DNA of 63,148 bases, counting the filler, from Stramenopiles sp. TOSAG23-3 (taxonomy: Eukaryota), in the NCBI GenBank assembly GCA_900128585.1. It is 46 parts of 46 records of this genome, joined end to end, with 100 filler letters (N's around TTAATTAATTAA, not from the genome) between each part and the next. Parts side by side here need not be neighbours in the genome. Positions count along the whole stretch, not along the records: positions 53,705 to 54,970 come from LT646137.1; 45 more parts are not named here. The stretch is one strand, 5' to 3'. Shown piece by piece: positions 52,523 to 55,820 of this stretch (its first letter is position 1; every line of letters begins with the position of its first letter). The position numbers and the translations under genes were made by a program. The notes beneath the pieces were generated by a model. The model did not search any database, was not told the origin of the DNA, and saw only the letters and a list, made by a program, of their open reading frames with translations.

Positions 52523-53194
52523 TCAATAGCCCATGCAGAGCGGGTCACCGTCGTTGGTAATTTTGGGAATGTTGCACTTGAGGCCAAAAACTTTGCTCAG
52601 CAATATTTTGAAAATTTTGTTAACATTTATGGAGTGCGAAGCGGAGCTGAAGATCAACGGCGCCTTCATTGCCTTCGCATACCGTTTTGCCTGTTTTATA
52701 ATTTCTCGTTGGTCCTTTTCGCCCAACTGCACGTACAGGTCGTACTTCGTCCCGACGAGTATTGGGAACGCGCCTTTGTTCAGCCCCCTGACTTGTCGGT
52801 ACCACTCCTTGACGCTTGCTAACGATGACTTATTAGACAGGTCAAACATGAATAAGATTGCGAGCGCGTCGTTGCATACTAGCGGGAGCATCGTTGCAAA
52901 CTCCCTCTGCCCGCCCAGGTCCCATATACTAAACTTAACTTCTGTATTCTTTAACGTGATCGATTTCTCCATAAAGTTCACCCCCAACGTCTCGATATAA
53001 TCCTCTTCAAACTTCCCTTCTACATACTTGACCATCATTGTCGTTTTTCCAATCTCTGCATCGCCCACCATCCCAACTTTGACGACAACGCTCTTCGCAC
53101 TCTTCGGTTTTGCCCGAGCCGGCGCAGACGCAGGCTGAGGCTGAGGCGTTTCCTTTTTCGCAGTGCCCCCAGCAGCTGTAGCTAAACTTGCCAT
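52523..53194 (-). CDS. SPG1: Spg1/Tem1 septum-promoting GTPase, complete
   Basis: GDAEIGKTTMMVKYV, YIETLGVNFMEK, WDLGGQREF..MLPLVCNDA, VGTKYD, SINVNKIFKI. Confidence 0.95.
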   Translation of the reverse strand: MASLATAAGGTAKKETPQPQPASAPARAKPKSAKSVVVKVGMVGDAEIGKTTMMVKYVEGKFEEDYIETLGVNFMEKSITLKNTEVKFSIWDLGGQREFATMLPLVCNDALAILFMFDLSNKSSLASVKEWYRQVRGLNKGAFPILVGTKYDLYVQLGEKDQREIIKQAKRYAKAMKAPLIFSSASHSINVNKIFKILLSKVFGLKCNIPKITNDGDPLCMGY

Positions 53195-53389
53195 GGCGAT
53201 GACGGTTCGTCTCTCTTATATTTGTTTATATGAAGTAAGATATAAACAGATAAATAGGCGTAGGAATCTCTTCCATCTAAATTACCAAACTTTTCAATCT
53301 CAACGGTTGAATTCAACGAATACCTTACACATGTAATTCTGTGGTGTATTTTGTTATCTGCTTTCTCTTTTTTCTTTTTTCTTCTTCTT

Positions 53390-53704: not shown

Positions 53705-54970
53705 TGAGCACAGGAGCAATGTCGAGCTCCTCCGCAACACTACAGAGGGGAATGGATATGGCCGGGGGCACAGAGACGACCATTTCCCCTTCGTCGCACC
53801 ACATGTACGCACTGCTCAGGACCGACAGCACCAAATAGGCACGGCGCAGTTCAGCTTTGCTCTTGCACAAGGGTTTGAAATCGATGACGGGGAGAAGCCT
53901 CGCTTTCGCACGGAAACCAGAAGATTTCAACAACGTTGGAACATTGCTGGCTAAGGATTCCCAAGGCTCGTACAATGGATTTGGCAGCCTGTCTAGCGGG
54001 TCGCCATTGCCGGGAAGCCCAAGAAAGCCCTTGACCTCATCGATGCTGTGCTGTTGAAAAATATCCGAGCACGCTTCCCTGTGCTTACCTATTTCATGCA
54101 GGAGCGGGTGAAGGCGTTCTGAAATTTGTTCCGGTTCCCAGTTTAGTCGAACTGCTCGTACTGGGACAAACTCGCTCGGTTGACCAAGCACAGACACTTT
54201 CCCATGTCCATCAAATAAAAATCGGACGCAAAATTTTCCGTCCCCTAGCCGTTCTGCTTCATCCTTTCCCATCTTTACAATGGGACAACCAGACCGCAAC
54301 GCGGCGGACGCCTCGCTTTCCTCAACCCTTTCCAAAATATCAATCCTTAGGCTGTCGGCATAGGTAGGCCACATTCTCGTGGTCCACTCCATTGCCCCGT
54401 CTTCTTCGGGCGACAGGCCAAGGGGCCGGAGCAAGAACGCGCTGATAGTCGAATAAATACAGGAATCATGCGCCGAGTAAACATTGAGCTTCAGTCCCGA
54501 TTCTTTGATTATGCCTGCCCGCTTTCTTTCCCAAACAAGCTTCCTCATTGAATTTACAATCGCATACAAAAACGGGGCCATAGAAGCTTCCAAAAATTCT
54601 CCGATGCCCGAAAAAGCAAAGGCCCACTTGTTCTTGATACTCGTGACAGCATCGATTTCTTCCTGCGTCAGCGTTGCTGGCATAATGTTGTACGCCTTCA
54701 AACAGCACAAAATCTCGCACAGCCTGTCCACTGAAAGCCCCCCAGGCTCGTCCTTTCCGTCGGGACCCGCATCGCCGAACGGAAAAAGCCCCGCTTCGTT
54801 GAGTTTCCTCGCAACTCGTGCGCGGAGTTCTTTCCCACCGGACGCTTTGCTGTACGGTTCCAGCCGAGCCTTGTACTTCTTCACTAGTCCGTGAAACTGG
54901 TCCATATCGGAGTCGGGAATGAAACTTTTCCACCTGCGGGCGTCGATCCGTACGTTTTTCTGGGAAACAC
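53705..54970 (-). CDS. Fusion of a histidine acid phosphatase C-half with an indoleamine 2,3-dioxygenase N-half, partial at both ends
   Basis: VYSAHDS and WPTYA..LRIDIL phosphatase motifs; GFL..DPLDRLP..YEPWE, ELRRAYLVLSVLSSAYMW, PPAISIPLCSVAEELDIAPVL IDO motifs; single open frame. Confidence 0.85.
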
Positions 54971-55070: not shown

Positions 55071-55820
55071 TCCCCTAAGAATGCATCGTTGATCGACATC
55101 GTGGCAAACAGCCAGTCGGTGAATGCCCTTTTGTGGAGCGCAGCTGCGGCGTCTTTGGTTTGCATCGTTATGTTTTCGATCCAACGGCTGATGAGCCTGG
55201 AGACAATGGTTGCTGCTTGGACGACTGGGTTTAAAGATATGATGGAGCCGATTCTAATTTTGCTTCTTGCGTGGGCTCTGGGCGGTGTGATAGTGGACCT
55301 GCAGACGTCCGTTTACCTCTCGAGTGCGCTGAAAGGAAACCTTCCCGCATGTTGGCTGCCAGCGTTGGGGACAATCCTTGCCTGCATCGTGTCGTTCGCA
55401 AGCGGTTCGGCGATGGGAACCATGGGAATTCTGTTCCCCCTCGTTCTGCCCTTGGCCGAAGCCCTGTCAAAGGGCGATGAATCGATTGTTATGGAGTCCG
55501 CTGCCGCGGTCCTGGCAGGCTCCACGTTTGGGAACACATGCAGCCCGATAGCTGACAACACGGTCTTAGCGTCGCTCGCGACAGGGTGCGATCTAGTTCT
55601 CCATGCAAAGACGATGGTGCCGTATACGCTTCTCACGTTGTTTGTGAGCTTCTGTTTTGGAACGCTCCCAGTATCGCTGGGACTTTATGGCCCTGGAGTG
55701 GGACTGTTGGTTTGTATCGGCGTTGTAATTCTTGTGCTCCGATTTTTTGGCACCGACCCAAGCGCAAGGCATCGGGTGCCAGAGAGTGACGATGGTCGTG
55801 GGCATTACAGCAGTATCTGA
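55071..55820 (+). CDS. NhaC-family Na+/H+ antiporter, C-terminal part
   Basis: SFASGSAMGTMGILFP, AVLAGSTFGNTCSPIADNTVLASLATGC...HAKT. Confidence 0.9.
   Translation, partial: SPKNASLIDIVANSQSVNALLWSAAAASLVCIVMFSIQRLMSLETMVAAWTTGFKDMMEPILILLLAWALGGVIVDLQTSVYLSSALKGNLPACWLPALGTILACIVSFASGSAMGTMGILFPLVLPLAEALSKGDESIVMESAAAVLAGSTFGNTCSPIADNTVLASLATGCDLVLHAKTMVPYTLLTLFVSFCFGTLPVSLGLYGPGVGLLVCIGVVILVLRFFGTDPSARHRVPESDDGRGHYSSI

What the first reader, a model, noticed from the sequence alone, without database searches (positions are those of the whole stretch)
53705..54970. Histidine acid phosphatase-IDO fusion
One uninterrupted frame contains the second catalytic motif of a clade-2 histidine phosphatase (SAHDS, about 54470) and its C-terminal strands, a short linker, and then a clear IDO-family N-terminus from about 54050. 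The junction is mid-contig, in frame and at natural domain boundaries, unlike the end chimeras. I know of no such fusion. It may couple dephosphorylation to tryptophan or indole oxidation. The RHG motif and the heme-ligand His are off-contig, so activity is unproven.
Basis: partly seen in the sequence, partly recalled or inferred. Interest (0 to 1): 0.75.

Follow-up and report, generated by a model that had tools for sequence, protein, structure and literature searches.

The report
Phosphatase–IDO fusion of marine predatory protists
A group of uncultured marine protists, likely MAST-4, carries one conserved gene that joins an acid phosphatase to a tryptophan-cleaving heme enzyme with both sets of catalytic residues intact; the protein is predicted to enter the nucleus, and its two activities likely work side by side rather than as one pathway.

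Summary
The fusion is real. The window holds the middle (residues 120-540) of an 851-residue gene. The IDO tail is on another contig of the same genome that abuts this one, and a separate assembly carries the whole open frame at 99.8% DNA identity. Seven fusion sequences, down to about 40% identity, keep RHGxRxP/Arg/HD in the phosphatase (one is cut before RHG) and the heme His, Arg231 equivalent and GTGG in the IDO. A member of the 54%-identical cluster is labelled MAST-4 in EukProt. Both domains form one clade each, and dN/dS is about 0.1 in the one usable pair. The fusions lack the N-terminal extension of stand-alone relatives and share an NLS-like KK[RQ]KL motif (7 of 7, against 0 of 27 nearest stand-alone IDOs). 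The IDO has the low-affinity IDO2-type His/Thr pair, and the genome also has a TDO-like fragment. Best reading: a lineage-fixed bifunctional enzyme; a heme-regulated nuclear phosphatase stays open. Not found in four paper searches or in earlier scan notes. RNA support across the junction is thin, and no structure could be predicted.

The parts
53706..54968 (-). Open frame, residues 120-540 of the 851-aa phosphatase-IDO fusion; both ends run off the contig
   Evidence: 2 residue differences from P0002; 99.84% ungapped DNA match to L007 over 1266 bases
54135..54968 (-). C-terminal two thirds of a branch-2 histidine acid phosphatase domain (residues 120-397); RHGDRTP (12-18) and Arg106 lie upstream, off the contig
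54462..54476 (-). SAHDS, second catalytic motif (His286, Asp287)
   Evidence: S[AG]HDS in 7 of 7 fusions
54063..54134 (-). Interdomain linker, residues 398-421; 24 aa here, 21 aa in the 6 other fusions
   Evidence: crossed by one 151-nt contig of an RNA library (X18 record 19)
53706..54056 (-). N-terminal part of the IDO domain (Pfam positions 3-115); positions 116-411, with heme His786, KKRKL (815-819) and GTGG, are on G000:C6238
   Evidence: (the two contigs overlap by 4 bases when laid on L007)

Best explanation
This is one gene encoding a roughly 850-residue chain with an acid phosphatase domain and an IDO domain, which likely arose once in the ancestor of MAST-4 and likely works as two active but largely independent enzymes, predicted to be carried to the nucleus together. 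Shown: single open frame, intact catalytic residues, one clade per domain, conserved linker length, short N-terminus, conserved KK[RQ]KL motif. Inferred: the phosphatase hydrolyses a small phosphomonoester through phospho-His13 (substrate not predictable; nearest solved relative is the lysophosphatidic acid phosphatase ACP6); the IDO binds heme through His786 and cleaves tryptophan or a related indole slowly, as IDO2 does; bulk tryptophan breakdown is left to TDO; the fusion replaced the phosphatase's organelle or secretory leader, and the basic motif acts as a nuclear import signal.
For: Full-length 851-aa versions in 5 of 9 cluster members from JGI, ENA and NCBI assemblies. 6 of 6 confirmed metagenome loci carry both domains, at 42-100% identity; L011 does so across an 88-nt GT-AG intron. 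EukProt label Stramenopile-MAST_4 in the cluster of P0011. Catalytic residues. Fusion IDOs are one clade (99, FastTree) inside a group that holds a brown-algal IDO; fusion phosphatases are one clade (100, quick IQ-TREE). dN/dS 0.12 and 0.10 for the two domains in L009 vs L011. No Met between residues 353 and 507 of P0002, so a separate full IDO start is unlikely (sequence). His542/Thr583 match the IDO2 pair tied to poor Trp affinity (passages of PMC8518741 and PMC11593294). TDO-like C-terminal fragment and 3-HAO in G000. RHG at residue 12-18 in fusions against 47-151 in 14 of 14 stand-alone relatives. The scan lists 27 notes under 'fusion' in this genome (AI notes, unchecked), a hint that fusions are common here.
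Against: A near-constant linker (21-24 aa), a long stem branch for the fused phosphatase (3.58 changes per column) and a fusion-specific motif suggest selection on the joined form, not mere tolerance. His/Thr is also the commonest pair in stand-alone homologues (56 of 147), so low efficiency is only borrowed from vertebrate IDO2. The TDO piece is 30 profile positions long and below the family cut-off (26.6 against 34.9 bits). Starts come from gene callers; L012 has an in-frame Met 30 codons upstream. The basic motif could bind anions or membranes instead of importin. No RNA contig spans the whole gene.
Confidence: 0.5

Rival explanations
1. Sensor and output: the slow IDO domain binds heme, O2 or tryptophan and regulates the attached phosphatase, which acts on a nuclear substrate.
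For: IDO2-type distal pair, with a TDO-like fragment in the same genome. NLS-like motif in 7 of 7 fusions and 0 of 27 nearest stand-alone IDOs. Fixed linker length. Mammalian IDO1 signals through SHP phosphatases (PMC11593294 passages). A molluscan IDO homologue may serve as myoglobin (PMC9481534 passage). Scan notes report bacterial IDO-like domains fused to signalling domains (unchecked).
Against: The whole tryptophan-turnover set (Phe163, Phe226, Arg231, GSA, GTGG equivalents) is invariant in 7 of 7 fusions, as in a working enzyme. Branch-2 histidine phosphatases mostly act on small molecules (own knowledge). SHP phosphatases are an unrelated family, so the mammalian case is analogy only.
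Confidence: 0.2
2. Metabolic coupling: both domains serve one route, either NAD+ economy (IDO feeds the kynurenine pathway, the phosphatase trims NMN or NaMN) or, removal of phosphate from an indole that the IDO then oxidises.
For: 3-HAO is present in G000, and basal stramenopiles use the kynurenine route (PMC4217691 passages). Yeast acid phosphatase acting on NMN is recalled, not checked. Equal conservation of both domains.
Against: Several enzymes separate IDO from any phosphorylated intermediate, so direct channelling is implausible. Kynureninase and QPRT were not found in G000 (incomplete genome, so weak). Downstream neighbours differ between loci: LarE in 2, an unknown ORF in 2, a kinase in 1.
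Confidence: 0.2
3. The gene is fused but yields separate products, through cleavage in the linker or through alternative transcripts.
For: RNA-library contigs cover the two halves in separate pieces; in X15 nothing is laid at L007 1416-2276, and X16 covers only the IDO part.
Against: Depths are 2-12, so gaps are expected. One X18 contig crosses the linker. There is no stop before the linker in any locus and no Met near the IDO start in P0002.
Confidence: 0.08
4. Assembly chimera of two unrelated genes.
For: The window is a string of short contigs, and the fragment alone misses the phosphatase profile.
Against: The same junction is present in separate assemblies and in sequences only about 40% identical.
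Confidence: 0.01

Closest known systems
Human ACP6, lysophosphatidic acid phosphatase type 6 (PDB 4job); Francisella and Legionella-type acid phosphatases (3it0, 7doq, 5cdh)
   Same: Best PDB match of the family profile (E 6.9e-30; 3it0 6.8e-28); RHGxRxP, middle Arg and HD motifs.
   Different: Fused to IDO; no N-terminal leader; the margin over other acid phosphatases is small, so lipid specificity cannot be transferred.
Human IDO1 and IDO2 (PF01231; PDB 6azu, 21om)
   Same: E 5e-53 to the IDO2 construct and 3.7e-48 to IDO1; proximal His, Arg231, GSA and GTGG equivalents present.
   Different: His542/Thr583/Tyr656 are IDO2-like, not IDO1-like; N-terminal phosphatase; a KKRKL motif in the loop before GTGG.
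Stand-alone algal and protist relatives: phosphatases P0182-P0195 and AGGKGTGG-type IDOs such as the Ascophyllum nodosum protein P0028
   Same: HRHGDRTPITP-type phosphatase family (21-35% identity); IDO clade in which the fusions nest.
   Different: Single-domain; the phosphatases have 46-150 residues before RHG; the IDOs lack the basic motif.

Membership tests
Histidine phosphatase branch 2 (PF00328) | RHGxRxP with the phospho-accepting His | tested here: met
   RHGDR[TS]P in 6 of 7 fusions; the seventh (L011) is cut by its contig end
Histidine phosphatase branch 2 (PF00328) | Middle phosphate-binding Arg and HD motif | tested here: met
   F[DN]RT and S[AG]HDS in 7 of 7; R106, H286, D287 nearly invariant in 22 sequences; role of the Arg recalled
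Histidine phosphatase branch 2 (PF00328) | Pfam score above the gathering cut-off | tested here: met
   54.4 and 66 bits against 23.6 for P0002 and P0011; the window fragment alone has no hit
Histidine phosphatase branch 2 (PF00328) | Fold and phosphatase activity | not testable with these tools
   No structure prediction was available; Atlas features give PF00328 clusters at 0.93-0.95, a lead only
ACP6 subfamily | N-terminal mitochondrial targeting leader (recalled) | tested here: not met
   RHG at residue 12-18 in the fusions; works like ACP6 at most, not filed as ACP6
ACP6 subfamily | Lysophosphatidic acid specificity | not testable with these tools
   needs an assay
Indoleamine 2,3-dioxygenase (PF01231) | Full-length profile match | tested here: met
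   positions 3-411 of 412, E 1.4e-103
Indoleamine 2,3-dioxygenase (PF01231) | Proximal heme His, Arg231, GSA loop, GTGG Thr | tested here: met
   H786, R660, S694/A695, T828 in 7 of 7; roles of Arg231 and Thr379 from PMC8518741 passages, heme His recalled
High-affinity IDO1 type | Tyr126 and Ser167 in the distal pocket | tested here: not met
   His542 and Thr583 in 7 of 7, the IDO2 pair
Indoleamine 2,3-dioxygenase (PF01231) | Heme binding and N-formylkynurenine formation | not testable with these tools
   needs an assay
Classical monopartite NLS | K-(K/R)-x-(K/R) core (consensus recalled) | tested here: met
   KK[RQ]KL in 7 of 7 fusions; KK[RQK]K in 1 of 117 stand-alone IDO loops that could be parsed, out of 147; 0 of 27 nearest
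Classical monopartite NLS | Importin-dependent nuclear location | not testable with these tools
   needs imaging or binding

The most novel reading that the evidence does not exclude
A nuclear heme-sensing phosphatase: an IDO domain, relieved of bulk tryptophan breakdown by TDO, reports oxygen or tryptophan supply and switches an attached histidine phosphatase inside the nucleus of an abundant ocean bacterivore. It would be a hard-wired counterpart of the non-enzymatic IDO-phosphatase signalling known from mammalian immunity.
Probability: 0.2. Interest if true: 0.8.

Novelty: new variant of a known kind. Interest (0 to 1): 0.5.

Why it matters
Why low-efficiency IDOs are kept across eukaryotes is an open question; PMC4217691 (section 9, read) doubts that several stramenopile IDOs start the kynurenine pathway. 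A single chain with a second, easily assayed activity and a candidate nuclear signal lets one test directly whether such an IDO regulates something rather than only turning over tryptophan. Databases name the protein simply 'indoleamine 2,3-dioxygenase', hiding the phosphatase. It is also a clade marker for MAST-4-like protists. If the domains prove independent, it is one more lineage-specific fusion and of modest interest.

Tried and rejected
Pfam and PDB searches with the window's phosphatase half alone gave nothing useful. The upstream part of the gene was not found in G000. No 18S rRNA was found in G000 (stricter first look), so the lineage rests on the EukProt label of a 54%-identical orthologue. 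The Atlas gave no usable hit for the whole protein. NCBIfam gave no family for P0002. No relative in viral contigs (0 of 60 pattern matches) or prokaryote genomes (0 of 51). The apparent stand-alone 262-aa phosphatases P0180 and P0181 end where L011 has its intron, so I rejected them as split forms. Seven proteins of 700 aa or more outside the fusion among the best 150 representatives have no His_Phos_2 (31 of the 150 were scanned). The word-based search found only P0002 and missed P0011 and P0171, so it says little about range. Kynureninase, QPRT and NadA were not found in the incomplete G000: no conclusion drawn. dN/dS was saturated in most pairs and uninformative for L009 vs L010 (1.5 and 0.59 on dN 0.006). 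The careful phosphatase tree did not finish; the quick tree is used. Uncovered stretches in RNA contigs prove nothing. Paper searches on IDO nuclear signals and ACP6 returned nothing relevant (listings only).

Full report
Observation. The window is a string of short contigs joined by N44-TAATTAATTAA-N44 spacers. The finding is one whole contig, G000:C2156. A minus-strand frame, 54968-53706, is open for 421 codons. Pfam finds IDO at residues 305-421 (E 2.5e-26). SAHDS is at 54476-54462. The phosphatase half alone has no Pfam or PDB hit, because the best-conserved part lies upstream.

Completing the gene. G000 has two IDO matches: profile positions 3-115 on this contig and 116-411 on C6238. A search with the phosphatase half returned P0002, 851 aa, 99% identical, with His_Phos_2 (E 1.8e-14) and IDO (E 1.4e-103). 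Five of the 9 members of its cluster are full length, from JGI, ENA and NCBI assemblies. Metagenome locus L007 matches the window contig at 99.84% over 1266 bases without gaps, and C2156 and C6238 overlap by 4 bases on it. L007 differs from G000 in its 3' flank, so it is a separate haplotype or assembly. The 5' part of the gene was not found in G000. A chimera is excluded.

Range and origin. All 6 confirmed metagenome loci carry both domains, at 100, 53, 42, 42, 43 and 43% identity. With P0171 this gives 7 fusion sequences; L009 and L010 are 99% alike. L011 has an 88-nt GT-AG intron in the phosphatase, whose removal leaves an 823-codon frame without stops. The cluster of the L008-type protein holds a EukProt entry named Stramenopile-MAST_4_protein_2510; the lineage of G000 is inferred from this. 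Fusion IDOs form one clade (support 99) within a group containing an Ascophyllum IDO, and fusion phosphatases form one clade (100) on a long stem. Where resolved, both trees group (P0171, L012) with (L009, L011) apart from L007 and L008. A nested pattern of this shape is also described for MAST-4 species (bioRxiv 10.1101/2020.10.09.333062, passages), but my loci carry no species labels. In the HMMER scan of 1.84 billion representatives, P0011 was the only one of the best 150 to match across both domains, and the 7 other proteins of 700 aa or more had no phosphatase domain. Intron-rich genomes are poorly covered by such gene calls. No relative was found in viral or prokaryote collections.

Catalytic anatomy. 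Phosphatase: RHGDR[TS]P in 6 of 7 (the seventh is cut by its contig), F[DN]RT and S[AG]HDS in 7 of 7. The best solved relative of a 22-sequence profile is human ACP6 (E 6.9e-30), closely followed by bacterial acid phosphatases, so the substrate cannot be called. IDO: His786, Arg660, Phe579, Phe655, Ser694-Ala695 and Thr828 are invariant in 7 of 7. The distal pair is His542/Thr583, the IDO2 state linked to poor tryptophan affinity (PMC8518741 and PMC11593294, passages). That pair is also the commonest in stand-alone homologues (56 of 147), so it is ancestral and not special to the fusion. Both domains are equally conserved; dN/dS is 0.12 and 0.10 in L009 vs L011, with dS near saturation.

Features specific to the fusion. 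The linker is 21-24 aa in 7 of 7. All 14 stand-alone phosphatase relatives have RHG at residue 47-151, the fusions at 12-18; by eye many of those extensions look like signal or organelle leaders. An X15 RNA-library contig runs unspliced from 127 bases upstream of the ATG, past an in-frame stop 30 codons upstream, which supports the short start for L007. L012 has a possible upstream Met. In the loop between the heme His and GTGG, all 7 fusions have KK[RQ]KL behind an otherwise variable stretch. This occurs in 1 of 117 stand-alone loops that could be parsed (30 of 147 could not) and in 0 of 27 nearest relatives. It fits the classical NLS core (recalled). That loop is often charged in stramenopile IDOs, so another role for the basic patch is possible.

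Expression. Twenty of 24 listed runs hold part of the gene, 6 of them RNA, all marine or aquatic where labelled. I laid 4 of the 6 RNA runs: three show pieces of both domains and one only the IDO half, at depth 2-12. One 151-nt contig (X18 record 19, residues 383-433) crosses the linker. These are contigs of RNA libraries that may contain DNA, so transcription of the joined form is only weakly supported.

Metabolic setting. G000 has 3-HAO and a short TDO-like C-terminal fragment below the family cut-off. Kynureninase, QPRT and NadA were not found in this incomplete genome. A TDO orthogroup is listed as an indicator gene in a MAST genomics paper (PMC8163842, passages). Downstream neighbours vary between loci, giving no pathway clue.

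Mechanism. I commit to a lineage-fixed bifunctional enzyme with largely independent activities and predicted nuclear import (0.5). The gene structure and residues are shown; activities, location and independence are inferred.

Novelty. Both domains belong to known families. The pairing did not appear in four full-text searches (listings only, open-licence library), and the scan's own notes had no look-alike. The Yuasa papers on IDO efficiency were seen only as cited in the passages above. The scan lists 27 notes under 'fusion' for this genome (unchecked), which lowers the surprise of one more. I rate it a new variant of a known kind, interest 0.5, rising to 0.8 if the heme domain controls the phosphatase.

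Noticed in passing
L007 3158-3260; window 28573-28609: A roughly 100-bp AT-rich dispersed repeat starts about 30 bases after the fusion's stop in L007 but not at that site in G000:C6238. G000 gave 49 listed matches from 965 candidates, 40 scored, and it reaches depths of 50-1800 in four RNA runs. Possibly a small mobile element with presence/absence variation.
   Followed up: partly
L009 4985-5971 (-); L012 2758-3717 (-): A LarE-type sulfur transferase (TIGR00268, E 1e-51, above cut-off), a mostly prokaryotic family by my recall, lies tail to tail with the fusion in two loci.
   Followed up: partly
L007 3466-4011 (-); L008 3104-3496 (-): A shared convergent ORF without any Pfam match follows the fusion in these two loci and in G000:C6238.
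   Followed up: partly
P0083; P0027: Other IDO fusions among the homologues: IDO plus GDSL lipase (P0083), and a 1102-aa EukProt protein with about 600 unannotated residues before the IDO (P0027).
   Followed up: no
window 52523-53215 (-); window 55071-55820 (+): Neighbouring but unlinked contigs encode what look like an Spg1/Tem1-type GTPase and a Na+/H+ antiporter-like membrane protein fragment (read, names recalled).
   Followed up: no
L005 1330-2622 (+) (G000:C97): Another histidine phosphatase of G000 appears to carry an EF-hand-like insertion (DADGDGRVS) within the domain.
   Followed up: no
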